A stretch of DNA of 64,000 nucleotides from Balamuthia mandrillaris (Eukaryota). Shown here piece by piece: positions 4,282 through 57,774 of this stretch. The DNA is taken from NCBI GenBank assembly GCA_031835245.2, contig JAVKOQ020000043.1, positions 62,001 through 126,000 on the forward strand, written 5' to 3'. The number at the start of each line of letters is the position of its first letter. The stretch's first letter is position 1. A model generated the notes under the pieces. That model ran no database searches. It saw only the letters and a list, made by a program, of their open reading frames with translations, and was not told the origin of the DNA. Both the position numbers and the translations under genes were made by a program.

Positions 4282-4768
4282 GGAGGTTGTGGTGGTTTTG
4301 CTGTTTGTTCTGGTTGTTCGTGTCCGCGCTTCCTTTGAATAACCAGCAGTATGCGAATGAAGTGTGTGATTGTAAAACTTCAATGAAACAAGCCCAACGA
4401 ACCGGCTGGCTTGTTGTTGTTGGTGCAGAGTAAGTAAGGGAGCCTAAGGAGTCTCAGCATGGTTCGTGTCTAGAGCGAAGGGGCGGCCAGCGATGGCCTA
4501 TATCGTGGGGGATGGCAGGGGCGGCCGTCTCTTGTTTCGGTCCATGCCTGGCCTCCACCAACGCACCTTCACATTTGGCGCTTGTGAAGCAACTAGGAGA
4601 AAGCTGCTCAGAAGGAAGATATGAAGGACAAAAAGAAGGAAGGAAACCTGGTGCGAAAGGGAGCAAAGGCATGCCACTTGGTTGCCATATGGTTCTGCTC
4701 TCGTGTCTACTCTACAGCAAAAAAAATAAAATAAATAAATATAAAATAAAAGTAAAACATTCAGAAGG

Positions 4769-7466: not shown

Positions 7467-7581
7467 ATGCAGAGCCCCAAAAAGAGAAAGAGAATTGCAG
7501 AAGAAGAGGAAGACAATAATATCTCCTGGTGGAGTCCCATTCTTCACCTTTATTGACGGTCCCAATTGTTTAACGTTCTTT

Positions 7582-7625
<44 letters not shown>

Positions 7626-8849
7626 CTCTCGCTCTCTCGCTATAGCCCTAAAGTGTCCAACGATGAGATCTTGCAGGAGTTCGTGGCGCATGTGCGTGAA
7701 AAGACCGCCGAGGAACCCATCCACATCGGCGTCTACATTCACAAAGGAGGGGCCGGCAAGACCACCACGACCACCACGCTTGGTTGTCTGTTAGCGAATG
7801 CCGGTCTTAGAGTGCTTCTGGTGGACTGTGACCCACAGTGCAACCTCACTCAGTTCTTCTTTGATGAATTGATTCAGGCCAACTACGACGGCGACTATCT
7901 GGCCTTTGTCAACGACGTCGAAGGCGAAAAGGATGAGCAAGGGCTGCTTCCTTCCCCCACCCTCTACGACATGCTGGGCGTTGTGCGTGACGCCCGACTC
8001 CTGCGCATGGGGGAGGTAGCTCTCAAGTTGCCTGCCCACAACTACGGTGGACGCCTTGCTGTTTGGGCTGGCCATCCGGACCTGGTGGATTTTGATGCTC
8101 ACCTTGCCTCCGCCGAAGCCACCTGGAAGGAGTTCAGCCCAAAACTGAATCAGCTGGGGGCTCCCTTCCACGCCATACGTCGTGCTGCCAACACCTTCAA
8201 GGCCAACGTTGTTCTCCTGGACCTTGGTCCCAGCGCGGGCGTGCTCAACCATTTTCTCCTGATGTCAAGCCACTACTTCTTCATCCCCTGCTTCCCTGAC
8301 TTCTTCTCCCTTCAGGCCGTGCGCTCCATGGCCACCAAGCTGCCCGAGTGGTACTATAGGAAGATGCAACGAGCGGAGGATATTCAAAGGCAACGCGTGA
8401 ACAGCCTGTATCCTATTCCCAACCACGCCCCAAAGTTTCTTGGCTCCCTCTTCAGCCGCTTTGCCTCCACGAAGAAAGGGCGGGTGAGCGACAGCGGGTT
8501 GACCACCGACCGCGCCGCCAGGAACATTGAAAGCTGGATGAAGAAGATAGTGACGGCAGTTGAGGAGCTCAATAAGTCGTTAAAGGAGAAGGCTCCAGCG
8601 ATGTGGCTGTCCGACGATAAGCTTTGCATCCAAAAGATCAGGGATTTTCACACGCTGGGAGCCCTCTCTCACTACTACGGCGTGCCCGTTCCTTTGCTCC
8701 GTGATGAGCACTTCAATCGAGCCGACGGCAATGGGAACATGAAGCCGATGCAAGAGCGTGACAAAAAGGCGCAAAGAAAGCAGGTGAAGAGCTTTCGCGA
8801 GTTGTTTGAAGCTGTCGTAAAAACAGTGTTAGAAAAGATGAGTCAATGA
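7467..8849 (+). CDS. ParA/Soj-family (deviant Walker A) ATPase with a short spliced N-terminal exon carrying a putative NLS
   Basis: HKGGAGKTT (deviant Walker A), VLLVDCDPQCNLT (A'), VVLLDLGPSAG (Walker B), FFIPCFPDFFSLQA. Putative exon 1 at 7467-7528 (MQSPKKRKRIAEEEEDNNIS) splices in phase 2 across intron 7529-7645. Confidence 0.85.
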
Positions 8850-32057: not shown

Positions 32058-34002
32058 TTACAAATGCTCATCTCCAATGGCGTCCGAAGCTTCACCCCAC
32101 TCTCCCTCCTTGGCACTCGTCGGCACTTTTGTCTTGCGAAGAGGAGAATGGTGTTGCTGTATGCCGGTGCCAAATGATGCAGTATCCGGTGAGCTCACTC
32201 TCCGCCTGTCCAAAGCGGTTGTTGCGGGGGTTGTTGGAGAAGAAGTGGACCGAGCCGTCTGTGAACCTTCTTCCCTGTTTCCTTCTTCGTTTGCTTCGTG
32301 AACAGGAGGAAGAACGAGCTTCTTGGCAGGATTCTTTGTCAACTGCTTGCGTTTCTTTGGGAGGTAAGAAGTTCTAAGAGCAGATGATGGCGAACCTCGA
32401 GCTCCTTTGACAACGCCCAGCACTTCTTCCTCATCCTCTTCCCCTTCTTCTTCTTCATTCTCTTCATCATCCTCATGCAAGGCAGCCAGAGATGAGGCAC
32501 TACCAACCACTCCATAGGATCCTCGTCTACGCGGCGCAAACTTTTGTCTAAGATTGACCAACGCATCCACTACAGACGTTCGTCGCGAGGAAGCACCGCT
32601 CTTGTATTCCGTAACCTCTTCTTTCTCCTCTCCCTCCTCCTTCTCCTCCTCCTTCTCCTTCTCCTTCTCCTTCTCCATGGCCCTTGGTAGTCTAGGTCGT
32701 TTGCCTAGTCTTGCTTCACCTTCTGCTCCTTCCTCCATATCAGCTTCTTCTGCGTCAGGATAACGTGGCAACCTCCCCAGAGAAGCAACGGACAAGCGAG
32801 GAGTGTTCAGGCGGAACATCGGCATACTTGGTCGCCTATTGCGGTTATGAGGACCGCCTTTTCCAGGGCCAGTACCAGTCACAGTATTCGGCATGAGATT
32901 GCCATCCACATCCAACATCAAGGCAAGGTCCGTGTGGCCAAAGAGCTGAAGGTGGTGATGAATGTCCCTCTCCTCGATGCCATCATAGAGAGGATTGCCT
33001 CTCACTTCAGGTTCAGAGTAAAGAGGATTAGTCTGAGTGACATCTCTGGGTCCCGTGGTGGTCAATGGCGGCACCGCTGTGGTCCTTCTCTTCACTCGAT
33101 GCTCGTGGATGCGCCGTTTGAAGGAGAACTTGGAGTGCTGACGGGAGGAAGAGGAGGCGCCAGCCACTTCCCTGTCTTTTGTTGCTCGTTTGGCGTCCTC
33201 CTCTAGCTTAGTTTTGGTCTCGGGAGATTGGAACGCGGCCGCCTCTTGGGCAACAACTTCCTCGCCATGTGCGCCCAGCTCCTTATTGATGGACTTGCGG
33301 TTGTAGTGCGGCACCATCAGTCGTTTGATTTCCACATCGCCAGTCTCCTCCTCGTCGATGCAAAATGTAAATGTGAGGAAGCGACGTTGGGCGTGGTAGA
33401 GGCAAGGCAACAAGGTCAGCAGGAAATAGCCTATCATAACGCAGACGTGGATCCAGAGGACGAGCACACAGAAGAAGCCACCTCCGTCGTCACTCTCCTT
33501 CTCCACAATGAACACCACTAATAGTATGAAGAGGACGACCGGAGCGGAGAGCAAGCACCACAACTCCGTCCAGAAGGACCAACGCACTCGCAAGAAGCTC
33601 GGTTTGTGATGACAGTTAAGCGTGTAGGCGATGTACCAGCCATGCCCCCACTTGATGTAGTTGTAAGGGCGGAAGAAGCAGAGCAACAGCATGTAGGTGG
33701 CGTAGATGAGGAAGAGCAAGACCACTGCTGCAATAGGCACCTGCCAGAGCAGGCCGACAACTGCTCCTGTAAGGAACTTGCGCAGCAGTACCAGCAGATA
33801 GTACCAGTTGAAGTGTTGTTGGTAGTCAGCAAAGAAGGCGCCGTAGAGGTGACGCACCAAACGGGCGTGATGCTCCAACCATTTGGGAGTGCTGTGCAAC
33901 ACGAATCGCCAAAACAAGAGTATACAAATTGGTACCGCTATCACGAACAGTGCTTGTTTCGCCGATTATCATAAAGAAACAATGTTGGTGATATGGAACA
34001 AA

Positions 34003-34040
<38 letters not shown>

Positions 34041-37000
34041 GACGAGTAAAGAGGAACGGGAGAGAAGAAAGAATACATACGGTAATGAAACCCAGAACAA
34101 TCGACAGCGTTGGCACAGACCAACCTCCGCATAGGAGATAGATAGTAAGACAAGCGTTGAGAACAGCTGGTAGATAGGCAACATCGCCCAACCTCAACAG
34201 CGCAGAACACAGCAACACAATGCACTTCTCTAAAAAGGTGGAAGTCCAGTAGTAGCTATTGGGAGGAGGCGATCTACCTCCTCAACATCAGCCCATTTCC
34301 TCATCTGTTCCAACTCTCGTTTAAGATCTTTCTTGGTGCGAATACTGCGCTTGCTCTCAGGATCGTGCGTGTGGCTTTGTTCTCGTTCTCTCATCGTGAC
34401 ATCTAATTCGCCGTGACTTCCTTGAGCCTCTTTCTGATCTTCCATAGCGAGGTAGAGAGAATAAAGGTTGTCCAACATTTTGTCGCCCTCTTGTCTGTTG
34501 GGCTGATGCATCTGGGAACTGATGCCATCGCCATAGCTCTCGCCATAGCAGCAGCAAAGGAAGAGAGAGAGCAATTTGAGCACCACTAGCACCAAGCATA
34601 TGAGCAGCACCAACGCCACTGCCACAAGACACAAGTAGAACACAAATGAGGTGATGAGAGAGTGCAACTTCACTGTAACTTCCCTGCTGTACTCCTCCGC
34701 TCCATAGTTGTCTGCTTCATCATCGTCATTTCCACCGCCAATGTGAACGACATCATCTGGTTCTCTGTGCCGATGGTCGTTGTCAGGCCATCGAAGATAG
34801 TCCGCTCGTTCCACAAGTAGCTCTGTGCCTCTCTTCGCCTCTATCCAGTCCCAAGGCAACGGCAGGTGGAACAACGTCCAGGAGTAACACTGACTCCACC
34901 CTAACACGTTCCAACAGCCGAGCTCATCCCAGCCGGGACTCAGCATGGCGCTCAGCGCGATGAACTGCATATAGTCCACTAGAAAGAAGCCGTCATTGGC
35001 GTAAACGCCTCCTCTCCAACCGGTCACAAGGGCGGCGGTTGCGATAATCATTCCTCCAATGCAGAATGTGCCTTCTCCTGTTTGGGAAGGAGGATAGACG
35101 CTAAGCGTGATGGAGGTGGCGCCAAAGTTTTGATTCATCAAGTAGGTGCTTTCCTCCAAACGAAGTTCTATTCCTGGAAGACTGCTCCATTGCAACGTTG
35201 GACTGAAAGTTCTCTATTCAAGGCCATCGTCCGATGCTGATGACGAAGGCAAGGAGTTGTCCAAAGAAGAAGAGGAATCTGGGAGCTCTTTGGGATTAGG
35301 CGGCACAATTTTCAGAGAGAAGCGGAACTGGCTTTGCTGTCCAGGAGCGAGAGTTGGGAACGAGGCCACAACAGTGCGATTAGGAGGTAGACTGGCATTC
35401 TGAGAAATGTAGAAATGCGCGGGCGCCACACCAGACAAGTGAAGAAGGCTTCCATCCACGAGAGTGACGCCTGTCGGGAAATGCTCCTCAAAGACCACGT
35501 CGAAAGCAGTGCTGTCACTCGCTTGGTCATGGAAGATGGTCACGATGAGATCTATGACATCATTGTATTTCAGAGTGGCGTTTGTGCTGAGCTGTTGGGA
35601 GAGGGAGAGAATGGGTTCATGCACGACCAGCTCTGGGGCAGCCGCCGAGAGCGGCTCCAGGAGAGTAGGTAGTGCTGGAAAGGATGTGATCCGGGTTGAA
35701 CACAAGTGTTGTTTGTGGAGAGAGGCGAACTTCTGGTTGGTGTTGGTGGCCGATTCCCAGTCTCCTGATTGAAGGACCCGGGCCAAGCAATTGGAAGTTG
35801 CTCATCCAGAAGCATCGGTTGGAAATACCTTTTCCGTGATAGTTAAGAGATGCGTTGTTGACGACGAATACAGTGTATTCCACCTCCAACCAATCTGGAG
35901 AGTTGTTGTCTCTGTTCCAGTTCCACACCGTACCAAAGTCGAACACTAACAACCGTTCTTTGTGCTGAATAACATTGTCGTCGAGGTTTTGGTTGGGTAC
36001 ACCAGCTCTATCTTCTTCTTCCGTCTCCCCTGTCACTGTTTCATTGGTGAGCAAAACGCGCGCGAGGTGCTTCACTTGCGAGCAATGAACAGTGATCCAA
36101 CTATTCTGTTCGCTCGCACTCTCTTCAGCAGGGGATGAACAGAGGATGTCATCGGAGGAGGTGGCGATGGTATATGCCAAGAAAACATCCTCTGGAAGAC
36201 TCAGCGCAGGGTCTAACAAAGCAGCCACCGCAACCACCGCTGAGGTACGGCCCTCAGGTAGCGTCACTCTCATACGATAGTTCACCTGCTCTCCAAATGT
36301 GACTCCCCAACTGTCCACTGCTGCTCCTTCTTCCTCTTTCAACGTTGTGCCATCCACAAAGAGAGAGAGGAAAGAGTCCGAAATGGCGATGATGCTGGAT
36401 TTTTCTTCAGCGATGCCTGGCTTGCCTCCGGTCGCTATCTCCATGACGTGCTCCGCGGTGAAGAAGTCAGCCTCCACCAGGACGAAGGAGTTGGAGGGGC
36501 TTGAGTCCCACGTCAACAAAGCCCGTTGAGATACGTTGCTCGAAGGCTCCACTTGATCGGCAAGTCGTATCGAAAAGTGAATGGAAGCCACTTGTCCCAC
36601 TGGCAGAACGGGAATAGTGATCAACATCTGGGGATGAATGGTGCTCTCGTCCTCTTGCTCTCTACGAGTCGTATTTGCTGAAGTGGTTGCCCTGGAGGTG
36701 AAGCTAAGGAAGGTGATACTTGGGTTAAGGGCGCTGGCGGGTTCCACACGAACACTGTCTGGCAGGATGACGCCTTGGCGATAATCCACAAAGTTGTGGA
36801 GAAGAACATCAAAGGCAGCAGAAGTACTTTCCTCTTGAACGTGTCCAACTCGATAGACGTAATTGACCATGTCACCAGCGTCACCCACCGACAAATCTTT
36901 GGAGTTGTCGAGGATAACCAACTGAGGCTCCACGATTCGTACCTGCAAAGAGCGCTGCTTCATGTTGAGAGTAAAGTCGAGAGTGCTGCGAATCGTGATG

Positions 37001-40000
37001 ACAACGCCATCCTTGTTCTCTGGAACATCAGGTACAATGGCGGTGACGCGAACGATGATAAAGTCCTGCTCGTCCGTCACTCCATCTTGGGAATGTTGAT
37101 AGCTGCCAAAGTCAAAAATGGCCGTGTCATTGTGGCCGTCTCCATTGGCGTCCGAGTGCACAGCATAGTCACCAACTGAAAGCAAAGGAGAGGTAATGGC
37201 TTGTCCGAGAGAGACCACACGGGAAGAAAGAACGCTCAGTTTGCCCCCTGCCAATGGATTGGTTTCCACGGTCAAGACTAATTTCTCGGTGGCTTTACGT
37301 AGAAGCTTTTCTGGCAGCTTCACCAAGGCCTGGAAGGTTACAGCTTCTCCCACGTTCAGTAGTGCCTCCGCTATGGATGCTGGTGTTTCCTGGATAGAAG
37401 TGCCGACGATTTCAAAGCTGGATAATTGTGGCAAGTTCAGCAGAAGCTCCGCGTCATTCGAGAGCAGGTTGTAGAGTCTTCCTCCCTTGGGCATGCTGTT
37501 AAACTGCAGCGAGGCATAGTTGTGGATGCCTACTCCAGGATGAACTGTGGTCGAAACAGCACAAGTAAAATTGATGGCGATGGATTCTTCTTGTTTTGGC
37601 AAGAACGGGAAGTGCACACGAATGTAATTGTCGTTCACGCCATTGCCAGTCACAATGCTAAAAGGAGAGGTATTTCCAGAAGCAGCCAAGGAAGAAGTGA
37701 CCATAACAGAGCCAGCCTTGAGCGTGAGGGCAGTATCAGGTATTCTGTCCTCAATGACTAGGTTATAGGCAGGAGAGGCAGAGAGGAGGGGATCATGATG
37801 AAGGAGAAGCCTGTAAAAGATGTCGTTGGTGCCTTGCGGATTTACATAGCCAGACTTGACAAGGGTGATGATAGGCTCCACGATTATGGTTCGGTAGACA
37901 GCAACGTTGGAGGCTCTCGCTGGAGCATCAGGAATGATGACTATAGCGATGTCAGTCAGGTCAGCTGCTTCTGATGCTGGTACTGCCGTTTCATCGTAAT
38001 CGTAGCTCAACATGGAACTTGCTCTCAACGGCGTGTCTCTGGAGTTGGTCGTGGCGAGATTGGGTACCATCATCCATACCCGAAGCTGCAGGTCGTCGTT
38101 GGCGTCCACCACATTATCCGGTTGGTTAATGCAAGTGCCGAACGCGAATCGAATGCCATCAAAGAAACCGTCTCCGTCTTGATCAACCAATACCGTCTCG
38201 TTTACACCCTCTTGTACTCGAACAGAGCCACCCAACAAGATCAAACTGCCGGAAAGTACTTGCAATTTCCCAGCTGCATCGCCATCAAAAGTGTCAGCAA
38301 TTCCATTGACGTAAACAGCACAGTCATTGAGAGTGCCTTCGGGAAGCGTTGCAGTGACGGTGAAGGATACCGATTGTCCAATCGTCAAACCGTCGGCAGA
38401 AGGAAGACCGTCGCTTTGGGCTTGAGCGTCAACGTCCCGCTTCAGAGTAATGAGAGGGCGTGGCAGTTGCAGCTCGGTGGTGCCAGAGACAGTGGAGAAT
38501 TTTCTTGAGGGTAGCTGCTCGCCATCCGCAAAGCTAGAAGTGCTGCTAAAGTAACGCAGGGTGGCTCGTCCGGTTCGCAGAATGGTTTCAATTTGAGCGC
38601 TCTCCTCCATTTGCACCTGGTATTTCACAAAGAGGCGTTGATGTCGTGATGGTTCAGCGAGATAAGGGTTGGGAAAGTTGTCAATTCTAACGAGGAGGAT
38701 AGAGTCGCTATCGGCCACCACTTCCACATGACCAGGATACTCCTCCACCTTTCCATCGGTGGTTGTACCATTGGAGAAAGAAGGCAAGGAGCCATCGTTG
38801 GTGTAGACCACGGATGTACTGTCAGCCATCACTTTCATGCTAGGATGCAGCACATCCATGACTTCCAATCTGTATGCTGCGGAGCTGCTGGGGCGTAGGT
38901 CCATCACGTGAGCCACTTCCAATACATAACCTATAATATCGCCGGCATCCACTGTAGGTCGTTCTTCTTTGGTGCTTCTTTCGTTGTTGACGCTGCTCGC
39001 GAGGACTTGTTGGTACCTAAAGAGTTGAAGAGAAGGTTCCGCGACTTGCACGTATGGATTGGTGTTCATTGGGTACTCGATGAACTCTCCAGCCTCACCA
39101 TATGTAAATCCAAAGAGAAGGCTGGGCCGCAGCTCTGTTCCGGGTTGGTTGGGTGGCTCGTCCAAGATAACAGCTCTCACAATGATGCGTATCTGTTGTG
39201 ATTGGAGCTGATTATTGGGATGTGCTGCAAAGATAGCATCCCCGAAGTCAAACTTGAACGCATCCTCTATTCCGTCTCCTCCGCTGCTGTCCACAGCCAT
39301 CGATGCACCGTCTCCATGTCGAACAGGACCAGAAGTAGTTACTCTAGCAGACATTCTAGCGACGGCAGAGAGCAGCTTCATCTTTCCCAGCGATGGGTTC
39401 TCTACTCGCGAGGAGTCTCCGCTGGGAAGGAAGAGTCTCGCTGTGAGGTTGTGGGTGGTACCCTCCGTTAAGTTAATGTTGATGTGGAAGGTAGCCACTT
39501 CGCCAACGTTCATTAAGGACAAGGGTCCCGTTTCTGACAGTGAGGAGGAGACCAGGTCGAAGCTGATGGAAGGGCTGTTGATGGAGAAGACGAGGATGGC
39601 AGGTTGAACGGTATTCACTCGTGGAATAGGAATGAAATTACTGCTGTCTCCACCTACTGGCAGGGTTTGGGTCTCGTTCGGGGGACTGCTGTAGAAAGTG
39701 AGGAGCGGTTGAGTGGGTATGATACCGCTAGCCGGAGCACTATCCAACACAACGGTGCTATAAGTGATGACCACTTCTTCACTGTCTAACGGGTAGACAG
39801 GAATACGCAGCTTCAATCCGCCTCCATCTTCGTTTGACAGAAGAACATAGTTAGGGTAGGAGCTTGTCACGCTGTCTTCGATCAACCCCAAGTGGACATG
39901 AAGAGGGTCTACCAGTTCCACCTTGTAGGCAGCGGAGGTAGAAGTCTGCGATTGATGCTTGATGCGAACAGTGAAGTTAATGGTATCGCCAGCATCACCC

Positions 40001-43000
40001 TTCTTTTTGTCACTGGTGTAGCTGATGCTGAGCTTAGGTTCCACAATGGCAACATGAGAAGAGGTTTCCTTTCGTAAGCCAGTACCAGTGGCCAACGTGG
40101 CCTTGCTCTCCAAAGCCAATCCGTTCTGGTTGATTAGGTCACTCTCCGCCACCGCCATCACAATCAACTTTACGGTATCACCTGCATCGTTCGTATTGTC
40201 TGGGCGATTGACCAAAGTGCCCAACGAGAACAACACGCTGTCCTGGATGCCATCTCCGTCAGCATCTCCAACCTGTGATTGAGGTGAGGGAGTTGTAGGG
40301 GTCGTTGTGATGCTGGCACCCAACACCACTCCGGCGTGGATCAAACGAAGTTTGCCAGGAATGTTGCTCATGCTGTTGGTCAAAACGTCAGTTACTTGCA
40401 GATCGGGGGTAGTTCCTTCGGGAAGGACCACTGTAATCTCGAAAGTCACGATCTCTCCGATATTCACCACCTCGCCGCTAGTCTCCGTAAGAGAAGTGTT
40501 GACGACCCTGTGGAAGTAGGTGATTGGGGGAGTGCTGACGGAAAGGGAAGAGGAGGAGAGGATGCGTTTTCTTGGGCTGATGCTATGGTGGGTAACAGTG
40601 TCTACGCTGGGGCTGCTATCATAGCTCAGGGAGGTGGAGGTAGAGAAGCCCATATCAGTATAAGCAGATTCTGATATAACGCAATCATAGCTGATGGTGC
40701 AAAGTCCGGAGGTAAACGTTGAGATATGTGTCTCCACATGTGAGTCTCCAGCAGCATTGCCGCTCACAACGGTAGAAGAGCTACAGGAGAGCTGGACGCT
40801 CCCAACCACCAACACCAACTGACTCGAGAGGAGAGGTTGCTGGAATCGGACGTTGTAGGCGGTAGAAGTGGAGGCCGTCGTGTGCCTAAAGGCTGCTGTA
40901 AATCTAATCGCATCGCCAGCATCTCCCACCGTTACGTTGCTCTGGTAGTTGGTGATCTCTAAGAGAGGTTCCCTCAATGAGATACCTACCGAGCTTTGCT
41001 TCAGAGAGGCAGCACGGATGGTGTCATGCGTCATGGAAGCAGGGCTAGTGAGAGAGATACCGGCCATGTTGGCGGCTACATCCAAGACGATGGCTCGAAG
41101 CACCACTATCACGTTGTCAGCAGAGCTAAGTACATTGTCAAAGTGATTCACGATAGTGCCGAAACGGAAGGTAACTTGGTCTAGAACGCCATCCGTGTTG
41201 CTGTCAGTGGTGAAGATAGTGACAGTGGCAGGAACAGCAGAGGCGGTATCCAAAGAGCCACGAACGTTATCTCCGTACTCAACCGAAGCGGCTATAAAAG
41301 CAAGCTTTCCAGGAGAGATGGGCAAGGAGTCGGTCACCACCAAGCCAGTGGTGGTGCCTTCTGGCAGACCAATGACTGTTTGGAAGGTCACAAGCTCCCC
41401 AATGTTGAGGAAGGAGCCTGGCGTCTCGCTAAGCGAAGTGTTGCGAAGGGACCTGAGGATGGTAGCAGCTGGTGTGCTGAATGTTCTTGTCGTAGATAAG
41501 AGAGTAGAGACTCTGCCTATACCCGTTGTTGTTGCTTGGGGAGCAGATCTGTACTCCAACAACATGCGAGAGCTGAGGGAGGAGTCTATTTTGGCGACGT
41601 TGGACACCTGGCAATCGAATGTGACCACCAGAGTAGCAGAAGGGAGAAAGCTGCCTAGTTGAACGCGAACATCCCCGTTAGCAGAGCTAGCACTGTTAAC
41701 TGTAGCAGCAGTCACTCCAATGCCAGCGATGGTAATAGTAGCAGGTAAAAGCGTCAGCGCATCATCCAGTTGGTCGCTCAGCACGAGATCATAGGCTGTG
41801 GAAGATGAACCCGAATGAGAGATCGTGGTGGTGAAGCGTATCAGATCACCACTGTCGCCGCTGCTCTTACTGGCGGTGAAGCTCATAGCCAGCAACGGCT
41901 CCGCTACTGACAAGAGTTCCGTCACTGGTCCCACCGTCTGCATGGAAATTGTGGTGGCTCCAAACGCAGTATTGTCATAGGTAACAGCAGCGTTGCTCTT
42001 CAGACTCACCCCTACGATGTTGGTGGCGTGGTCAAGAACGAGAGCTTGAATGGAGAAGACCAGCTGGCTGCCCTGAAGATTTGCATCTTCCTGAACATCA
42101 ATGCTATTCAGGATAGAAGCGAAGGCAAAGACAACAGTGTCAAAGATTCCATCCCCGTTGCTGTCGCTGTTAGTTTGGGTCATGCCGTTGAGAGTCAGTT
42201 TGTTCCCTTTAGAAGCTAGCTCGGCGGAGAGTAGGCGTAATGCGCCAGTGTTGGTCGACGTTGCGTTTGGCAGAGTGTAGGTAAAAGCAAGCCGGTTGGT
42301 GGTACCCGGTGGGCAGCGAATAGTCACGTTGAACCGAACGGTCTCTCCCACGTTAACGATGTTGCCACTGGTCTCGGCTAGATCCGAGTACACCATTTGG
42401 TTGCTGACGAGAGTAGGGGCGTTCATGCGAAAGGCATACATGGAAGAGATAGAGGCTGCTCTTCCAGTTGCAAACAGACCGCTGCCACTGGTAGTTTCTT
42501 GCTGGTTGGGGCTGGAATCCCATCGCATGGTGGCTTGATTGTCCACAAGAGAACCAACAACAGCTGCGTTGGTGGCCATCGCCTCATACATCAACTCCAA
42601 TGCGCTTTGTTGCAATAAGAAAGTGCTGATATTGATTTGAACATCCTGATCATTGGCTCCATTTCCCTTCTGAATGGTAACGGGGGCGTTGTTCTGGTTG
42701 AGCTTCACTCTCACCGAACCGGGCACAAGACGAACATCGCCAGCAGTGCTTATGTTATCCACAAGTTGAAGGTCATAGGCAGCAGCAGAACTGGTGGCGG
42801 CTGAATGAGCCAGAGAGAGGGTGTAGAGAATGACGTCTCCAGCTTCAACGTTGGCACTTCGATTGCCGACCTTGTTGAGGGTGAGGTTGGGTTCTACCAC
42901 CTCCATCAAGACCGAGCGTGAGATGAGTCTTGTACCAGAGGGAAAGGAGACAACAAGCGTGTCCTTCAAGCCACGTTCATTGATGTTTGCTGTGTCATCT

Positions 43001-46000
43001 TCCACCAACGCTACAGTTTCCAGCTCCAGTTGCACTTGGGCCTGATTGACGAATGGCTCGAGCTGAATGAGCAAGCGGTAGGTAGAGCTCTGGCTGCTTA
43101 GCACACGCACGTTAGGGTCTTGGTTGATGATTCTCCAGTTCAACAAACGGAGCTTGCCCATGCCCGCCGTTCCATCCGTGAACGTCCAGTCAAGCGAGAT
43201 CTCGTTGGTGCCTTTGGGGAACAAAAGGACGGCACGAGTGGTGACCGTCTCGCCCACTGCCAGATCCTCCACGCTAGTGCTCTTGCCTTTATCCGCGGTT
43301 GTGGCGGCGATGGAGGTGCTCGCGATGGCCATAGATAGTACGGCAGGCTCCTTGGTTGAGAAGCTGGCTGATGAGCTGGTGGTATAGCCCCTGGCCCCTG
43401 TAGTGCAAGTGGCGGTAGTGCAGCTCTTGTGTGAACCAGAAATGGTGTTGGAGATGAGAGCTCCTACGATAGTGCTCTGGGCTACCTTGGCGTCGTATTG
43501 GAGAGTGTACACGCCAGGTGCAGCCATGTCAGCAGTCACCTGTAGTGTGTTGGAGGCAGCGTTATATGTGATGGCCTGTCCTTGAAGAGGAGGAGTGACA
43601 AGAACGCTGCCCTCCACTAACAAGAGGGAACGGTGAAGCCCGTCTGTGATGACGAGGGAGGAAGCTGCCATAACGCTTGCCACAGAAATGGTCGCCGTGT
43701 AACGAACAGACTCCCCAGCCTCCGGAGGAGAAGTGGTGCGGTTGTGAGCTTTAGTAAGCACCACAACAGGTTCAATGATGATGTACGTGATGTCGTTGGC
43801 AGTGGTATCAGTGGCAGTACCAAGCGTTGCGCCGGTACCAAGGACGCGAGAGGTAACCCTGCCCGTCACAGCAGGAATCACAAAACCTTCCTTGTTGGCG
43901 GTGACATCGGTCACTCGGGCCTTAAAACGAAGAGTGATGAGATCCGCTGTGTTTTGAACGTTGTCAGGGAGATTTGTGATAGAAGGAAAGTTCATGGCGA
44001 ATGTAGTGGTGGATGTCTGTTGGATGGTGAACTCGTTGCCGCCAATGAGAGCTCCGTAGGAAACGAGCTCTATGCTGCTGCCCGCCACATAAGCCAGAGT
44101 ATTGCCACCGCTGGTGGTAGGTAATATGGTCTCTACGAGGAGGCTAGCTCTGCCCTCGGGTACGCGCACCACTACTTGGTAGGTGATCTCCTCTCCGATG
44201 GTGACCCTCGGGTCGGTGGTGGTACTAAGTGAGGTGGCATAGCCATCGGTGGTGATGGTTGGGCTTCGTAAGGTCACAACCACGCTCTTGGAGCCAGAGT
44301 AAGAGCGAGCCTTGTTGGCAGTGCGGTCTCTAGCGGATCGCCATGACAGGCTGGCAAGGTTGGTTATCTTGGAGGACACTTGAACATCATTCACGATGTT
44401 GGCCTTGAGAACCACGGTTACTGTTTCGCCCAGCACGATCTTGTCCAGTTCGAGAGAAAGGATGTTGTTGGTGACGCTGGCCGCTGCTGTCGCGGAGGTA
44501 GAAGTCACACTCAAGCTGCCAGGAACATAAGCGAGAGAGGTTGGCAAAGGGTCGGAGAGTACGATGCCAAAAGCGGCTGAGTTGGAGGCAGTCTGGTGAG
44601 TGATGGTGATGGTAAAGATCAGCTCATCGCCGGCATCCTTGTTGCTGGTGGCGCTGGCTGCATGGGCGATGTTCAGAAGGGGCTCTACAATCTCTGTGTT
44701 GAGACTCTTGGTCCATGTTCCAGCAGAACCTTCCGTCACGGCAGCAAAGAGAAGGGAAGCGGTGGTACTGAGCCCTACAGCAGCTTTGTTGCTGGTAACG
44801 TCTGGAACAAACGTATCCACTTGAAAAACTAAAGTGTTGTTGCTGCCAAGTATGTTGCATGTACCAAACGAAAAACGTGCCAAGTCGTTCATTCCATCTG
44901 AGTTGGTGTCGGAGAAGACAGCAACACCAGCGCTGTTTGAGGCGAGTGTTATGTCTGCTCCTTTGGAAATAAGGCTAGCAGCGGTGACTTGCAGCTTGCC
45001 TGGAGCAAGGGGCATTTTGGCCAGGAAGCCGCAGCTGGAGGCCACGCCCTTGGGAAAAGTAGCAGTGCCGCGGAAGGAAGCATCCTCCCCTACTCCTAAA
45101 TCGGGCGTGATGGAGGTCAGTTGTGTTAGGCTAGTCTCGGGAAGAGAGGTGGAGTAGAGCTCCCAGTCCAAGACCGGGTATTTGAGGGTGAGCGAGCTAG
45201 AATCGAAGAGGGCGAGGTTGAGGCTGGAAATGTAGTTCCTGCCGCCCTCCATGGCAGCATAGCTGAGCAGAGTGGCTGAGGACTCTACGGTACTTCCTAT
45301 CTCAGCAGAGCTGCTGTCTACCTCCAGATAGTAGGTGATGAGAATGATGTTCTTTCCGGCTCTGCTTGAGTCTGCCGAGTCGTAGTTGGAAACTGCGGCA
45401 AGAGAAACAGAGGAGTCTGTCAATTGTATACCCGCATTGCTGAATAGGTTGCCTGAGTAGGGCACAGGAACGCGATCGCCAGTACTCACGCACAAACCGA
45501 GGCCGCTCGCAGGAACCTTCATTCCAATTGGAATTACATCCTTTACAGCCACATCAAAGGCTTGACTGCTGCCCGTGTTCTCCAACAGGATGACAAACTT
45601 GAGGACGACTCCTCCCTCAACCTCTTTCGCTCTACTGTTGACAACGGAGGAGGAAGCGGCCAAGAGCTCGCTGGTAAGAGTAGTACCACTGAGACGCGGG
45701 CAAGAAGAAGTGGAGGTGTCCACGGGAAAGGTGGGGATGGAATCAAAGATTGTGTCAGTCTGGGAACTGGCCACGATGCCTTTTTGGACGTTAAGATAGG
45801 GTTGACGGATCCATATGCCACGAGAGCTTACTCCAGCGTAGGTGCCTTCCTGACTGAAACCTGAACAGCAAAGGAATGAAGTTATAAAGAGAAATGAGAC
45901 ACACAAGAGAGAGTTCAGATAGGGTAGCTTACCTACAGCAGAGAACGCATAATATATGCCTCTATAAGGTGCATCGTCTACGGTGACGGTGTACAGAATG

Positions 46001-48293
46001 TCTATTTTGGTGGTCACACTTTGTGGCTCACTGTGCAGGCCATAGTCTAGCCGTAGGGTGTCAGCATCATTGGAGAAGATTGGAATGTTAGGGTTAGTGG
46101 CCACCGTTAAGTAAGTGTCAGAGGGACCCCGTTGTGCCGTCCCAGCAGCAGGAAGAGCGGCCGTTGGGTTGGCATTGAATGAGGTGATGGGTTCCACGCG
46201 AGGAGGGTTGTACAGCGTGAATTTGAGCGGCTCGTAATCGGTCGAAGGCAGACTGTACTCCATTCGGAAGGTGAGCTTGCTGCCGGCTCCCACGAGGAGC
46301 TGGTTGCACGGCAGCGGAGAGCATACCTGCCCATCAATGGCGTAGAGGGTGAATGTCATCGAAGGAGGAGTAATGGCCACCAAGGCTTGGGCAGAGTCAG
46401 AGTCTGGTTGCGGCTGATTAAGCTGCAAAGGCACCACGGCGTTGACGACCTTGTGGTCTACGATCTGAGCGCGAAGCACCTTCATGTGCAAAAGGAAACA
46501 AAGAAGGGAGAAGGGAGAGTAAGTGATAGCCACACAGTCAGACTGGAGTTTTCCTTGTTCTTACTTACCGTGTTACTGTTCAGTGTTTGTCCTTGACTAA
46601 CCGCCTTTTGAGGGCGAGAGCCTTGCACGAAATAGTCCTCCAGAACGACCGTCCTGTACTTTACTTGCAAGGAGGTGATCGGCCCTCTCAACGTGCCATC
46701 TCCCGAGGGCACCACGCCCAACGTCTGGAAGGTGAGCTGTGTGCTCCCGTCCATCGGTTGCTTGGTGGTATCCACCACCAGGTCCCTCCCCTCCAAGAAG
46801 CTGGCCGAGTAGGTGCCCCGCGTGAGCGTGGGTGCATAGGTTCGGTCCAAGACCTGTCCATCCTCTATCTTGCTTTGCAGCACCATGTTGTGAAAGCTAA
46901 AGTAGTCCGAGACCTGCACGGTGAGAGCGTGCTCCAAGGTGTCTTTGGCCGAGACGCCGTTGTTGCCGTGATCTTTACCGGCCACCAGCGCCACGTCCTC
47001 CCAGATCAGGATGGAGTGCAGGACTAGGGTGTCACTCAGGCTTATCGATGAAGGTGCAGAAGAGGAAGAAGAAGAGGAGGGAGCCGTTTCGTCGAGGTAG
47101 CCGCTCACCGTCACTACTTGCGCTTGAGTGCGCGAGTTGCCCGTTTGCACGCTCAACACAGGAGCACCGACGCTGTCCACTTGTGGCACGTAGAACCTCA
47201 CTTCGACTTCCACCTCGTTGCCCGCGGCAGCGCCGCCGCTCACCGCATCGTAGAGGAGGGCAAGGGTTCGGTTGGAGGCGGAGGGAAGGGTGACCTGGGA
47301 GGGGGTTGGCCCCTTGGTGGGCGTCACGCTGAGCACGGCGAAGGCGGTGGGCACGGAGGAGGAGAGGACCACGTGGCGCAGGGTGGAGCCTTTGCTGACA
47401 TCGAGCTTGATGGTGCCGACCACCGGAAAGGAGGGTCCCGTTGCTGTCTTTTCTTTGTTGAACTCGAACTCGGCCTTTTTTTTGTTGGTTGTAACGTTCA
47501 TAGAGAGGAGAGAGGATAGGAGAGACAGCAACTTTTAGCAGAGAAGGAGAGGAGATAGGAGCGGACAGCCACAGAGAATGAAGAGGGAGAGAGGAATAGG
47601 GAGGAGAGCAACCTTGAAAACCGAAACGATGACCGCTCGGGCTCCCAACGACCATTCGGCAGGGCGCGGGCTTGGAGTGGGCACGACCGAAGGGTCCTCC
47701 AAGGGGTTGATCTTGGAATCCCGACCTCCCCAAAAGCCAGCCCTGAGATAAAGCGGCAGCTCTGCACCTTGCTTGGCCGACTCGGGCACCGTCACGATCA
47801 ACTTGGCCTGCACCTTCAAGTCCTGCGGCTTGAGGACAGGAAAGGGCAGCGACACGGACAACCACAGGTCTCCATGCCGGCCGCAAACCATCAGGTCCGC
47901 TTCAGCGCTGTCAGCGTATTTGTGGGCTTTGCAGCTCTCTTCGATCACTGTGGTGGTGCTGTCGACAGGGTTGACGATGACCTGCGGGGCGGGAAAGGTG
48001 TGGAGAGTGTGCTCAACGGTGGAGAGAGGGAGCCCAAAGATGGTGAGTGACTGGTAGGCGAGAAGGGGCTGGCCGTTGGGCCCGGCGTGGAGGAAGACGT
48101 CGAGAAAAGGATAGTATCCGCCCTGGTCCCCTGTGTTGGAGAGCAAGAGGTCGACGATGAGAGTGTCACCGGGACGGTACACGTTGTTGCTGGCGGTTTC
48201 AGAGAGCGAGAGTTCTAACGAAGGAAACGGAGCTCCTGCTTTTACCACAAATATTCATTTGCTTCGGTCAATCCAAAGGAGAGAGAGAAAGAG

Positions 48294-53555: not shown

Positions 53556-54722
53556 TCATTGCTCGGCAAGACTCTTCAGAGGAACGCAGGCTCGGTGGTC
53601 TTCCATCATCTTTGCCAACAGCTTGATGCACGCGTAGACGCTGTTCACATGCGGGGTGGCAACACCGGTCAACCGCCCGAGCTCCACCACGCTGCCTATC
53701 ACCGCATCGATCTCTGGCTGCCTGCCAGCCTCCACGTCCTGCAGGGTGGAGGTCTTGTGCTTGCCAACCCTCTCCGCCCCGGCGATCCGCCGCTCCAAGG
53801 GCACTCTCATGCGAGCTCCCAACCGTTGGGCTATGCTCTGGACCTCCTCCATCATCGCCACAGCTAGCTGTCTGGTCAGGGGATACTGACAGAGCTCCTC
53901 CAGGGTGGCGTGGCACAAGGCAGAGACCGGGTTGAAGCAAACACTCCCCCAGAGCTTCAACCACAGCTCAGCCCTAATGTCCTCCAGCACAGGTGCCTTG
54001 AACCCTGCCCTCTCCAAAAGGGAGGACAGGGCGCGGACGCGCTCTGAAGTGGTGCTATGGTCCAGCTCGCCCACTGGGAAGCGGTCCCCCTCCACATGGT
54101 GGATGAGGCCTGGCTGCTCCATCTCTGCTGCCGGATAGACCACACAGCCAATGACTTGTTTGGGGTTGATGGTTTGGGAGATGATGCCCGTGGGATCCAC
54201 TGCACGTATGAAGTAGTCCTGGTTCTTGTACAGGTCGTTGCTGGCGCTTGTTCCTCCTCCCTCTCCTTCTTTTTCTCCTTCTTCTGTCTTTGTAGTTTGC
54301 GGTGAAGAGGGAGGAAGGTTCTGGAAGTACCACCAAGGGATGCCGTTTTGTAGGGTGACAAGGACGCAGTGAGGGTTGCGCTGGAGGAGTTGCTGCAGCT
54401 CCTCCACTATGGGTTCCACCTGGTGAGCCTTCACGCCCAGAAAGATCACGTCGTAGCTTGCGCTTGACCCTGCCTCATCGTCGCCAAGCAAACGGTCGGT
54501 GGCGCGCACGCGGTCGGGCGAGAGGGTGGCCTTCCATTGCTGCTTCTTGTTCGGGCTCTCCAAAAGAAGGCCGCCCTGTTGGCGGATGGCCTCCAGATGG
54601 GCTCCACGAGCCACCAGGGTCACCTCGACGTCATCCAGTTGGGCCAGCTTCACCCCGAGAAGGCCGCCTATCGCTCCAGCTCCCACCACCAAAACTCTTT
54701 TCCTGCTCACCTCCTCCTCCAT
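53556..54722 (-). CDS. 2-dehydropantoate 2-reductase family (ApbA/PanE), PanE2/oxalyl-CoA-reductase-like subtype; intronless
   Basis: Rossmann VVGAGAIGG, ARGAHLEAI, LGVKAHQ, LQNGIPWWYF, VDPTG, VIGCVVYPAAE, EGDRFPVGELD, AGFKAPV..DIRAELWLKLWG..FNPVSAL, HKTSTLQDVEAGRQPEIDAVIGSV. Confidence 0.9.
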   Translation of the reverse strand: MEEEVSRKRVLVVGAGAIGGLLGVKLAQLDDVEVTLVARGAHLEAIRQQGGLLLESPNKKQQWKATLSPDRVRATDRLLGDDEAGSSASYDVIFLGVKAHQVEPIVEELQQLLQRNPHCVLVTLQNGIPWWYFQNLPPSSPQTTKTEEGEKEGEGGGTSASNDLYKNQDYFIRAVDPTGIISQTINPKQVIGCVVYPAAEMEQPGLIHHVEGDRFPVGELDHSTTSERVRALSSLLERAGFKAPVLEDIRAELWLKLWGSVCFNPVSALCHATLEELCQYPLTRQLAVAMMEEVQSIAQRLGARMRVPLERRIAGAERVGKHKTSTLQDVEAGRQPEIDAVIGSVVELGRLTGVATPHVNSVYACIKLLAKMMEDHRACVPLKSLAEQ

Positions 54723-54939
54723 TCCTCTCTCTTTTTTGTTGTGCTTGTTTCATCGAGTCTCATCTCCTGGCTCTTATCCTGTCTCCTGTCCACCCACACA
54801 GCACGCGAATAAATTTCGTTGAAAAGAGGGAGCAAAAATGACGTAAATTTCGGTACCGAAGGTTTTGCTTCTCTCATGTCCTCTCTCACGTCCATGAAAC
54901 GGTAAAACAAAAAAATAGTGAGAGAGAGAGCGAAAGAAG
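54723..54939. promoter_or_regulatory. Putative bidirectional promoter between the reductase and the oxalate-CoA ligase
   Basis: 217 bp between two divergent ATGs; contains TGACGTAA (54839-54846, CRE/bZIP-like). Function inferred from geometry only. Confidence 0.4.
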
Positions 54940-56777
54940 ATGACTTCCTCCCACCAGACGTTGTACGAGTTGCTCAAAAACTCTGCTGACAGAGATCCCT
55001 CTCACACAGCCGTGGTTCACCCTTACCCTCACGTCTCGTGGACCTACGCTGCCCTCCTGAACACCGTCCACGCCTTGGCCAACACCATCTCTCACCACCT
55101 AGGACAATTGGAGAGCGACAAGGCAGTGCACCATGTGGCGCTCGTGGCCCCCAACGGCTTTCCCTGCTTGGCCTCCTTCCTGGCCATCACCTCTGCCAGG
55201 GCTGTGGCCATGCCCTTGAACCCCGCCTTGGCCCTCAACGAGTTCCTCTTCTTCCTGGAGGACGTCTCTGCCTCCGCCCTGATCTTCCTCCAACAGGAAG
55301 ACGGAGAGGAGGAGGACTCACACGCCTCCTGCCGCGCTGCCACGCAGTTGGGCGTTCCCATTTGGAAGCTCTCCCCTTCTTCCATGGAACTTCAGGTCCC
55401 TTCTTCCTCGGCTGCGGAACCTCCAGCCGCTGGGGAGACGTCTCTCTCCCTCCCACCGCAACCGCAGGACCCGGCGATGGTGCTGCACACGAGCGGCACT
55501 ACCGGCAGGCCAAAGGCCGTCCCGTTGACGCACCTCAACCTTTGTACGTCAGCGGCCAACATCGCAGGGACCTACCATTTGGCTCCGCAGGACACCGCTC
55601 TCGTCGTAATGCCGCTTTTCCACGTTCATGGCTTGATAGGTACTTTCGAGAGAAGAAGGAGAGAGGGAGAGGGAGAGGGGGAGAGAGAGGGAGTGAGAGA
55701 GAGAGGGAGAGAGGGAGAGAGACCGAGAGATAGCGTTGTTAGCAACAAAGACTGATGAGCTGACTGATAATGGCATAAACAGGTGTGGCCTTGTCAACGC
55801 TTTCCACGGGAGGAACTCTGGTAATTCCTCCTCGCTTCTCGGCTTCGCAGTTTTGGGAGACCGCTGCCAAGCACCACGTCACTTGGTACAGTGCTGTGCC
55901 GACCATTCATCAGGTCCTGCTTCAATGCGCACAACAAAAACAACAAGAAGGCTCTGAACATCATCTTCGATTCATTCGCTCCTGCAGTAGCTCTCTCGCT
56001 CCTTCCATCCTCAAAAAGTTGGAGCAAACCTTCGAAGCTCCAGTGTTGGAAGCGTATGGCATGACGGAAGCATCCCATCAGATGGCCTCCAATCCTCTTC
56101 CAGAGGAAGGCGAGCATCGAGCAGGCACCGTTGGTAGGCCTACCAGGGGCGTGGAAGTGGCCATTCTGGATGAGGAAGGAAAGGTCCATGGGCCAGATGA
56201 TGCAGGAGTAGTTGGAGAAGTCGTTATTAGAGGCAAGAATGTTACTCTTGGGTATTGCTTCTTCCTTTTACTTATTGCTGTGCATTGTTGTATATTTCAA
56301 TAATTGTCCTCACATCTTTCGTTTCTCAGATATGTCAACAATCCGAGCGCCAACGCAAGCAGCTTCACCAAGGAAGGTTGGTTCCGTACGGGAGATCAAG
56401 GCCTCTTCCAAGAAGGCGGCTACCTACAGCTGACTGGCCGCCTCAAAGAACTCATCAATCGCGGGGGCGAGAAGATCTCTCCCGTCGAACTGGACTCTGT
56501 GCTTCTCTCTCACCCTTCCATCTCCGTTGCGGTCGCTTTCGGCGTTCCCGATCCTAAATATGGCGAGGAGGTCAACGCAGCAGTTGTGCCAAAGAAGAGC
56601 GATGGAGAACAAGAGGAGTTGACGGAGGAGGAGGTCGTTCGACATTGCAAAACTCAGTTGGCGGAGTTCAAGGTGCCGAAACGGGTGTTTGTGGTTGAGT
56701 CGCTTCCTCAATCGGCCACCGGCAAATTGCAACGGAAGGCCATCGCCTCTCATTTCCTCTCTCTCATTCAACACTAA
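54940..56777 (+). CDS. Oxalate--CoA ligase (AAE3/Pcs60-type acyl-activating enzyme); 3 exons
   Basis: LHTSGTTGRPKAVPLTHLNL, VMPLFHVHGLIG, RFSASQFW, TWYSAVPTIHQVLL, LRFIRSCSSSLAP, APVLEAYGMTEASHQMASNPLP, GYVNNPSAN, GWFRTGDQG, GRLKELINRGGEKISP. Introns 55640-55782 and 56252-56329. Confidence 0.9.
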
Positions 56778-57305: not shown

Positions 57306-57774
57306 ATACTTCGCTTGAAGTCGGGAGGAAGAACGTAGACAGCCCATTGAGCAACCACGAAAGGACCAGCGGGCTCCATGTCAGGCTATTTTTTGTTGTT
57401 CAACAAGCGTTAGGCTCTCATCGTAGATGAAACAGAAGAGCAGAGAAGAGAACGAAAGGGGGTGGAGAGTGGTTGAGCCGGGTTACCTCAAACATGCAGA
57501 GACGGTCTTGGTGGAAGAGGTTGGTGCAGGCAGGGCCGGGGCGGAAGGCCTCGATGAACTTTTGGCGGAGCTGCAGGGCTCCGGCGGTGTGGTTCTTGTT
57601 GTTCTGCCAGAAGAGGACGTGGATGTGGTAGCTCTGAAAGTCCACGCCCTGGTCGCAGGAGGCATTGTGCGGGGGGAGGTAGTAGGTCGGGTGAGCCTCC
57701 GCCTCGAGGATGACTCCTCCAAAACAGAGGACAAAGGCAGCAATGGTAAGCGCAAAGATGGTGGTGGAAGCCAT
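57021..57774 (-). CDS. DOPA 4,5-dioxygenase family protein with a signal peptide; 3 exons
   Basis: SYHIHVLFW, (exon 2) EPAGPFVVAQWAVY, and WMMQNRGEFDILVHPNSGCEIEDHTTWALWGGQPWQIDLSAF. N-terminus MASTTIFALTIAAFVLCFGGVILEAEA. Confidence 0.8.

What the first reader, a model, noticed from the sequence alone, without database searches (positions are those of the whole stretch)
53556..56777. Candidate eukaryotic oxalate-assimilation module: oxalate-CoA ligase head-to-head with a PanE2-like (oxalyl-CoA reductase) gene
Seen: an AAE3/Pcs60-type oxalate-CoA ligase (+) and an intronless ApbA/PanE-family reductase (-) start 217 bp apart. The reductase carries QNGIPWWYF, IGCVVYPAAE, EGDRF and WLKLWG..FNP, which I recognise from the PanE subtype in proteobacterial oxalate gene clusters rather than from canonical pantothenate PanE. 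Established: in Methylorubrum (Methylobacterium) extorquens, oxalate is activated by oxalyl-CoA synthetase and reduced to glyoxylate by the panE2 product, whereas plant AAE3 and yeast Pcs60 are linked to the oxalyl-CoA decarboxylation (detoxification) route. Inference: this co-regulated pair lets the organism convert oxalate to glyoxylate, a route I am not aware of being described in eukaryotes, with the reductase probably acquired horizontally. Neither C-terminus (SLIQH, SLAEQ) is a PTS1, suggesting both act in the cytosol.
Basis: partly seen in the sequence, partly recalled or inferred. Interest (0 to 1): 0.88.

Follow-up and report, generated by a model that had tools for sequence, protein, structure and literature searches.

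The report
Amoeba gene pair for recycling oxalate
The amoeba Balamuthia carries, back to back and both transcribed, a gene for an enzyme predicted to activate oxalate and one for an enzyme that likely reduces the activated oxalate to glyoxylate, which would give a eukaryote a way to reuse oxalate carbon that we found described only in bacteria and engineered yeast.

Summary
In Balamuthia mandrillaris a 538-aa ligase (two introns, spliced in RNA) and an intronless 388-aa PanE-family reductase start 217 bp apart, head to head. The ligase matches solved oxalate-CoA ligases (E 1e-141) and keeps their oxalate-binding Ser, His and Lys. The reductase belongs to subfamily NF005089 and is 48% identical to the Methylobacterium panE2 orthologue, which itself lies next to an oxalate-CoA ligase. 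In 121 alphaproteobacterial genomes all 32 with this reductase type also carry an oxalate-activating enzyme; in 23 the two genes are adjacent. Most likely function (0.75): oxalate to oxalyl-CoA to glyoxylate in the cytosol; no activity was measured. It also occurs in red algae, ichthyosporeans, a dinoflagellate and Paulinella, some with peroxisomal signals; its donor is unresolved. Linkage in other eukaryotes could not be shown. The scan had noted the bacterial module before on other DNA. Verdict: a known bacterial module, apparently rebuilt in a eukaryote. Interest 0.6.

The parts
53556..54722 (-). PanE2-type (NF005089) reductase, 388 aa, intronless; predicted NADPH-dependent oxalyl-CoA reductase / CoA-acylating glyoxylate dehydrogenase
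   Evidence: 363.7 bits, cut-off 223; 48% to the Methylobacterium panE2 orthologue; transcribed; ketopantoate-reductase fold
54219..54308 (-). Low-complexity acidic/Gly insertion (residues about 139-168) inside the subfamily's PWWYF...VDP insert; predicted disordered
   Evidence: longer than in all aligned homologues; pLDDT below 50
54723..54939 (.). 217-bp spacer between the two start codons; inferred shared bidirectional promoter and both 5' UTRs
   Evidence: function not tested
54940..55639 (+). Oxalate-CoA ligase exon 1 (P-loop HTSGTTGRPK, FHVHG)
55640..55782 (+). Intron 1 (143 nt, GT-AG)
55783..56251 (+). Ligase exon 2 (RSCSSS with the Ser289 equivalent; EAYGMTEASH with the His319 equivalent)
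56252..56329 (+). Intron 2 (78 nt, GT-AG)
56330..56777 (+). Ligase exon 3 (C-terminal domain, Lys500 equivalent in TGKLQR; ends SLIQH)

Best explanation
The two divergent, transcribed genes encode an AAE3-type ligase predicted to turn oxalate, ATP and CoA into oxalyl-CoA and a PanE2-type reductase that likely reduces oxalyl-CoA with NADPH to glyoxylate and CoA, which would form a cytosolic oxalate-assimilation module. Shown: gene structure, transcription, family and subfamily, conserved residues, and the tight pairing of the same two families in bacteria. Inferred: the activities of these two proteins; the chemistry (hydride from NADPH to the C2 carbonyl of oxalyl-CoA as in ketopantoate reduction, Lys256 as acid, collapse of the hemithioacetal to glyoxylate and CoA; no Cys is invariant in the subfamily, so no acyl-enzyme); the direction, driven by the ATP-consuming first step; shared control from the 217-bp spacer; and the fate of glyoxylate (malate synthase, transamination to glycine or reduction to glycolate). 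The pairing arose in the eukaryote from a native ligase and a reductase of bacterial type whose donor is not resolved.
For: Ligase: the 4 best of 19 PDB hits are oxalate-CoA ligases (E 1.5e-141 to 8e-89; next best 2e-63); equivalents of Ser289, His319 and Lys500, named as oxalate contacts in PMC8905533 (passages), are present. Reductase: NF005089 363.7 bits against 151.5 (cut-off 252) for the next PRK06522 model; 48% identical to the Methylobacterium bullatum gene whose first 19 nt equal the published M. extorquens panE2 forward primer and which lies in oxlT-FAH-panE2-ligase. M. extorquens PanE2 interconverts oxalyl-CoA and glyoxylate with NADP(H) (PMC8411744, PMC9485241; passages); deleting the Cupriavidus necator homologue slows growth on oxalate (PMC7486775, passages). 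Context: 42 of 80 closest bacterial loci, 28 of 44 with full flanks, hold frc, oxc, oxlT or the ligase within 7 kb; 0 of 4 more distant paralogues inspected do. Of 121 alphaproteobacterial genomes, 32 have the reductase type, 29 the ligase, 25 both, 23 adjacent; the other 7 all have frc; 9 of the 89 without it have either. Transhydrogenase genes follow the reductase in 3 of 6 close plasmid loci, fitting NADPH demand. Ligase tree: Balamuthia with Ceratiomyxa and Physarum (97), eukaryotes (98), apart from the PanE-linked bacterial ligases (100), so the same pairing arose twice.
Against: No activity, flux or co-induction was measured. The enzyme is reversible and in C. necator probably also runs glyoxylate to oxalyl-CoA. 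38 of 80 bacterial loci show no oxalate gene nearby (16 of 44 with full flanks). The 121 genomes are related, so the Fisher p (1e-15) overstates independence. In 2 of 5 genomes checked this type is the only PanE-family gene found, which leaves room for ketopantoate activity. Residue 260 is Ser where 23 of 24 aligned rows have Asn, although bacterial genes beside the ligase carry Ser too. In Acanthamoeba none of 3 PanE-family gene numbers neighbours any of 5 FAT2-family gene numbers (supplement rows of PMC13632651; subtypes and number order not verified). No Balamuthia genome was held, so downstream enzymes and other PanE copies were not checked.
Confidence: 0.75

Rival explanations
1. Same enzymes, other direction: the reductase oxidises glyoxylate to oxalyl-CoA and the ligase activates free oxalate, both feeding an oxalyl-CoA decarboxylase; the pair disposes of toxic C2 acids as formate and CO2 rather than assimilating oxalate.
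For: PanE2 is reversible, Km 0.36 mM for glyoxylate (PMC9485241); C. necator uses such a route on glycolate; plants pair cytosolic AAE3 with cytosolic OXC (PMC8004701, passages); Dictyostelium has HACL1 and Acanthamoeba one gene in the same broad group. PTS1-bearing eukaryotic homologues would sit where glyoxylate is made.
Against: 24 of the 25 alphaproteobacterial genomes with both genes lack frc over its cut-off (oxc itself not searched), so the pair often stands without the CoA-transfer part of the decarboxylation route. No decarboxylase gene flanks the pair in the window. A high cytosolic NADPH/NADP+ ratio favours reduction (general knowledge).
Confidence: 0.13
2. The reductase is a ketopantoate or general 2-oxo-acid reductase and its place beside the ligase is chance in a compact genome.
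For: All databases name it 2-dehydropantoate 2-reductase and it passes TIGR00745 (173.8 bits, cut-off 141.35); it keeps the PanE catalytic residues; PanE paralogues can be broad 2-oxo-acid reductases (bioRxiv 10.1101/2024.01.05.573888, passages); Acanthamoeba has PanB and PanC, so a relative makes pantothenate; head-to-head neighbours need not be functionally linked.
Against: Only 17-20% structural-alignment identity to biochemically studied PanE enzymes (E. coli, Thermococcus, Pseudomonas) and 26-28% to canonical-type paralogues, against 48% to PanE2; canonical PanE lies far outside its clade. In Acanthamoeba PanB and one PanE are mitochondrial, whereas this protein begins MEEEV. The neighbour is exactly the partner predicted from bacteria.
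Confidence: 0.1
3. The reductase is bacterial contamination or an assembly chimera.
For: Intronless, best hits bacterial; no single laid contig spans both genes.
Against: Neighbours are intron-containing eukaryotic genes; DNA contigs of the same species cover both genes and both flanks at like depth; three RNA runs with consistent letter differences from the window, so probably another strain, carry its reads; GC3 0.73 equals ligase exon 1 at 0.76; it has a low-complexity insertion of the host's style.
Confidence: 0.01

Closest known systems
Oxs plus PanE2 of Methylorubrum (Methylobacterium) extorquens AM1 (Schneider et al. 2012, not held; seen only as cited in PMC8411744, PMC9485241, PMC7486775)
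   Same: Same two enzyme families side by side; 48% (reductase) and 43% (ligase) identity to the M. bullatum orthologues.
   Different: Here divergent, not co-directional; eukaryotic ligase with introns from a different clade; no oxlT, FAH hydrolase, frc or oxc nearby; activity untested.
ApbA2 of Cupriavidus necator (PMC7486775)
   Same: PanE2-type gene tied genetically to growth on oxalate; the C. metallidurans locus beside frc is 40% identical.
   Different: Activation there is by Frc; the Cupriavidus proteins fall in a sister subgroup.
Plant AAE3 and yeast Pcs60/Fat2 oxalate-CoA ligases with the OXC decarboxylation route (PMC8905533, PMC8004701)
   Same: Same ligase family and oxalate pocket; cytosolic like plant AAE3.
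   Different: Their described partner is a decarboxylase, not a reductase; Ala313 of the pocket is Gly here, as in Ceratiomyxa, Physarum and Methylobacterium.
Engineered yeast oxalate pathway FAT2 + panE2 (PMC10127448, PMC12686821)
   Same: Exactly this combination of a eukaryotic ligase and PanE2, working in a eukaryotic cell.
   Different: Built by hand; the amoeba pair would be a natural instance.
Canonical ketopantoate reductase PanE/Pan5
   Same: Fold and catalytic Lys, Asn, Ser, Glu (E. coli numbering recalled).
   Different: About 20% identity; lacks the PWWYF...VDP insert and the HKTS motif.

Membership tests
Oxalate-CoA ligase (AAE3/Pcs60) | Closest characterised relatives are oxalate-CoA ligases, with a clear gap to other ANL enzymes | tested here: met
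   E 1.5e-141 to 8e-89, next 2e-63
Oxalate-CoA ligase (AAE3/Pcs60) | Oxalate contacts Ser289, His319, Lys500 and pocket Val215-His216, Cys288, Met314 | tested here: met
   only Ala313 differs (Gly)
Oxalate-CoA ligase (AAE3/Pcs60) | ATP-dependent oxalyl-CoA formation with preference for oxalate | not testable with these tools
   Needs an assay
PanE2-type oxalyl-CoA reductase | Member of the subfamily that holds the M. extorquens panE2 orthologue | tested here: met
   Both score over the NF005089 cut-off; same clade of 116 rows, SH-aLRT 96; orthologue identified by primer match and gene order, not by the M. extorquens sequence itself
PanE2-type oxalyl-CoA reductase | Intact Rossmann motif, NADP Arg and catalytic Lys/Asn/Ser/Asp/Glu | tested here: met
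   GAGAIG at 14; R39, K98, N126, K256, N264, S325, D329, E337 in 24 of 24 rows; N260 is Ser, also seen in bacterial ligase-linked copies
PanE2-type oxalyl-CoA reductase | Genomic association with oxalate activation | tested here: met
   Adjacent ligase in the window; 32 of 32 bacterial carriers have ligase or frc
PanE2-type oxalyl-CoA reductase | [quoted passage not shown] | not testable with these tools
   Needs an assay
Canonical ketopantoate reductase | Groups with studied PanE enzymes and passes their equivalog models | tested here: not met
   Below cut-off on all 11 equivalog models listed; far outside in the tree; passes only the broad TIGR00745 subfamily model
Canonical ketopantoate reductase | Reduces ketopantoate | not testable with these tools
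   Side activity not excluded
Operon transferred from bacteria as a unit | Both genes group with the same bacterial donor | tested here: not met
   Ligase groups with Amoebozoa and other eukaryotes
Recent lineage-specific horizontal transfer of the reductase | Nested with support in one bacterial clade, absent from other eukaryotes | tested here: inconclusive
   Unresolved; on a eukaryote-rich side at 88/97; AU p 0.195 for that group; other eukaryotes have the type
Conserved eukaryotic gene cluster | Same linkage in other eukaryotes | tested here: inconclusive
   0 of 63 metagenome loci looked eukaryotic; Acanthamoeba gene numbers not adjacent; no eukaryotic genomes searchable
Co-regulated pair | Joint induction by oxalate | not testable with these tools
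   42, 57 and 16 reads laid on 5.2 kb show transcription only

The most novel reading that the evidence does not exclude
Many microbial eukaryotes (amoebae, red algae, ichthyosporeans, dinoflagellates, Paulinella) own an overlooked oxalyl-CoA reductase, mis-annotated as ketopantoate reductase and in some lineages sent to the peroxisome, so that oxalate is not a dead end for them but is pulled back into glyoxylate; Balamuthia shows the route by having rebuilt the bacterial two-gene module from a native ligase.
Probability: 0.5. Interest if true: 0.8.

Novelty: new variant of a known kind. Interest (0 to 1): 0.6.

Why it matters
Reviews seen here list only oxidative or decarboxylating oxalate routes for eukaryotes (PMC13409138, PMC8004701; passages). 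A reductive route would mean that some protists keep oxalate carbon, from prey, soil or their own glyoxylate oxidation, and would add eukaryotes to the oxalate-carbonate cycle. It gives a testable function to a widespread mis-annotated PanE subfamily, offers eukaryote-adapted and peroxisome-targeted enzymes for glycolate engineering, photorespiration bypasses or oxalate-lowering work, and is a case of a eukaryote re-creating a bacterial gene pair from parts of different origin.

Tried and rejected
No whole genome was held, so other PanE copies, PanB/PanC, malate synthase, oxalyl-CoA decarboxylase and formate dehydrogenase could not be checked in Balamuthia. Schneider et al. 2012 was not held. 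The Asn-to-Ser change at 260 looked like a eukaryote marker but a motif scan returned 63 loci, 62 bacterial-looking PanE2 genes and 1 chance match: rejected as a marker, and no eukaryotic synteny came of it. A single eukaryotic origin including Paulinella was rejected (AU p 0.007); the group without it was neither rejected nor shown (p 0.195; group named after seeing earlier trees). Fusions: 6 of 10 long hits join the reductase to an AMP-binding domain, but P0248, P0251 and P0252 hold garbled stretches and the two genes overlap by 4 nt in one genome, so some are probably frameshift artefacts; counted as adjacency only. A catalytic cysteine was considered: C193 is Ser in the Methylobacterium orthologue and C278 is absent from the Cupriavidus one. 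Two Atlas searches gave only bacterial PanE clusters. Runs X2 and X3 gave only scattered short pieces: no evidence. PMC2776528, PMC5116747, PMC12927642 and PMC10471605 (passages; one supplement of the last) held nothing on this pair. No complex prediction was sent, as binding is not claimed. Supplements of the bioRxiv preprint were not seen.
Full report
Observation. The window comes from Balamuthia mandrillaris, as named by the sources of two identical proteins, both on a 260,624-bp contig. The reductase is an uninterrupted 388-aa frame at 53556-54722 (-). The ligase has three exons, 54940-55639, 55783-56251 and 56330-56777, giving 538 aa identical to KAL6071153.1. The start codons are 217 bp apart. 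Three RNA-seq runs (42, 57 and 16 reads on 5.2 kb, 3-5% of each run read) and one contig set show both genes transcribed and both introns spliced at GT-AG. DNA contigs cover both genes and both flanks at like depth, though none spans the pair. The neighbours are an insulysin-type peptidase, a DOPA-dioxygenase-like gene, DUF423, a helix-hairpin-helix protein and a DNA glycosylase, so the unit is two genes. Neither protein has PTS1 or a PTS2 pattern. The public reductase model lacks the GxGxxG region; RNA favours the full frame.

The ligase. Of 19 PDB sequences at E below 1e-50 the best four are oxalate-CoA ligases, with a gap of more than 25 orders to the next. PMC8905533 (passages) names Ser289, His319 and Lys500 as oxalate contacts, the first two specific to the family; all are present, and only Ala313 is Gly. 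In a 44-row tree (quick, LG+G4; about a third of the long hits plus 8 named eukaryotes and 8 PanE-linked bacterial ligases) it joins Ceratiomyxa and Physarum (97) within eukaryotes (98), apart from the PanE-linked bacterial ligases (100). It is a native gene.

The reductase. It scores 363.7 bits on NF005089 (cut-off 223) and fails all 11 equivalog models listed. The best 119 database hits besides itself are 49-55% identical; the five with an organism name are bacterial. M. extorquens PanE2 reduces oxalyl-CoA with NADPH and runs in reverse with glyoxylate (PMC8411744 passages and supplement passages; PMC9485241 passages). The C. necator homologue, 51% identical to it, is needed for fast growth on oxalate (PMC7486775 passages). 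A model (pLDDT 79) has the ketopantoate-reductase fold, best match 3ghy at 32%, studied PanE enzymes at 17-20%. Catalytic positions are kept in 24 of 24 aligned rows except Asn260, which is Ser; bacterial copies beside the ligase share that change.

Context in bacteria. 42 of 80 closest loci (28 of 44 with full flanks) have frc (33), oxc (17), oxlT (14) or the ligase (2) within 7 kb; the scan read 5 of 64 parts of the collection. I opened 10 of 54 plasmid records: 5 of 6 close ones have such genes, 0 of 4 distant ones (one has hpxZ at its edge). In 121 alphaproteobacterial genomes, 32 have the reductase type at E 1e-50, 29 the ligase at E 1e-90, 25 both and 23 within 1 kb; the other 7 all have frc; 9 of the remaining 89 have either. 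Two of the four ligase-only genomes have an adjacent copy just under the threshold. Kinship inflates the p-values, but not one carrier lacks an oxalate-activating enzyme. Against: in 2 of 5 genomes it is the only PanE found.

Other eukaryotes and origin. I looked up 20 of 150 representatives; five are named eukaryotic: Porphyridium, Creolimax, dinoflagellate MGD, Paulinella and Timspurckia. Transcriptome entries may be contaminants, but Porphyridium lies on a 5.7-Mb scaffold and the two ichthyosporeans are sisters (100/100). Seven of 150 end in a PTS1 against 0.48 expected; two of the seven are named eukaryotes, five unnamed. Trees disagree on Balamuthia: unresolved among bacteria (136 rows, 5 duplicates and 1 fragment left out); in a eukaryote-rich group at 91 or 88/97 (54 rows); unresolved under the mixture model (19 rows dropped). 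That group is not rejected (p 0.195); adding Paulinella is (p 0.007). So at least two acquisitions, and no donor for Balamuthia. GC3 is not foreign. Linkage elsewhere was not shown. Supplement rows of PMC13632651 give Acanthamoeba PanB, PanC and three PanE-family genes, one mitochondrial, none numbered next to a FAT2-family gene.

Mechanism. Inferred: oxalate + ATP + CoA gives oxalyl-CoA; NADPH then reduces the C2 thioester carbonyl, which sits like the keto group of ketopantoate, and CoA leaves. The ATP step favours this direction. Acanthamoeba has a malate synthase-isocitrate lyase fusion in mitochondria (PMC13632651 passages); the sink in Balamuthia is unknown. The reverse, disposal reading (0.13) and the chance-neighbour reading (0.10) remain.

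Novelty. Both enzymes and their pairing are known in bacteria, and the eukaryotic-ligase-plus-panE2 combination was engineered in yeast (PMC10127448, PMC12686821; passages). Nine literature searches (up to 20 titles each seen as listings, open-licence papers only) showed no natural eukaryotic oxalyl-CoA reductase; PMC13409138 (passages) lists only decarboxylase and oxidase for lower eukaryotes. Class: new variant of a known kind. Interest 0.6; 0.8 if the route proves general among protists.

Noticed in passing
window 35617-46485 (-), continuing at 46482-47501 and probably 32058-35801: A 3622-aa open frame of repeated beta-rich domains with a DUF11 hit (E 1.5e-10), resembling large bacterial surface proteins, apparently followed by a membrane-spanning part.
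   Followed up: partly
window 7557-8849 (+): Uninterrupted ORF with a ParA/Soj-like Walker A (HKGGAGKT; label recalled), unusual in an amoeba.
   Followed up: no
window 2932-4443 (-): Ankyrin-like repeat protein with CPW repeats of the kind seen in giant viruses and amoebae (resemblance recalled).
   Followed up: no
window 57418-57774 (-) and downstream exons: Secreted-looking protein with a weak DOPA 4,5-dioxygenase hit below cut-off, transcribed; right-hand neighbour of the ligase.
   Followed up: partly
window 54464-54634 (-): The public 305-aa model of the reductase treats the NADP-binding region as an intron; RNA does not support that.
   Followed up: yes
window 54839-54846: TGACGTAA, a CRE-like bZIP site (label recalled), in the middle of the spacer; chance not assessed.
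   Followed up: no
G007-G126: 24 of 121 alphaproteobacterial genomes hold ligase plus reductase without frc over its cut-off, so frc-based surveys would miss them; oxc was not searched.
   Followed up: partly
L081:7104-7880; P0259 cluster; L106:11287-12060: A fumarylacetoacetate-hydrolase-family gene lies beside or is fused to the PanE2-type reductase in several bacteria; role unexplained.
   Followed up: no
P0246 (Sphaeroforma SARC_11877): The reductase is joined to a reprolysin/EGF protein, probably a merged gene model, since the Creolimax relative is a stand-alone 355-aa protein.
   Followed up: partly
P0273 (dinoflagellate MGD): Reductase with a 230-aa C-terminal extension that looks like ACT domains (recalled) and ends in SRL.
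   Followed up: no
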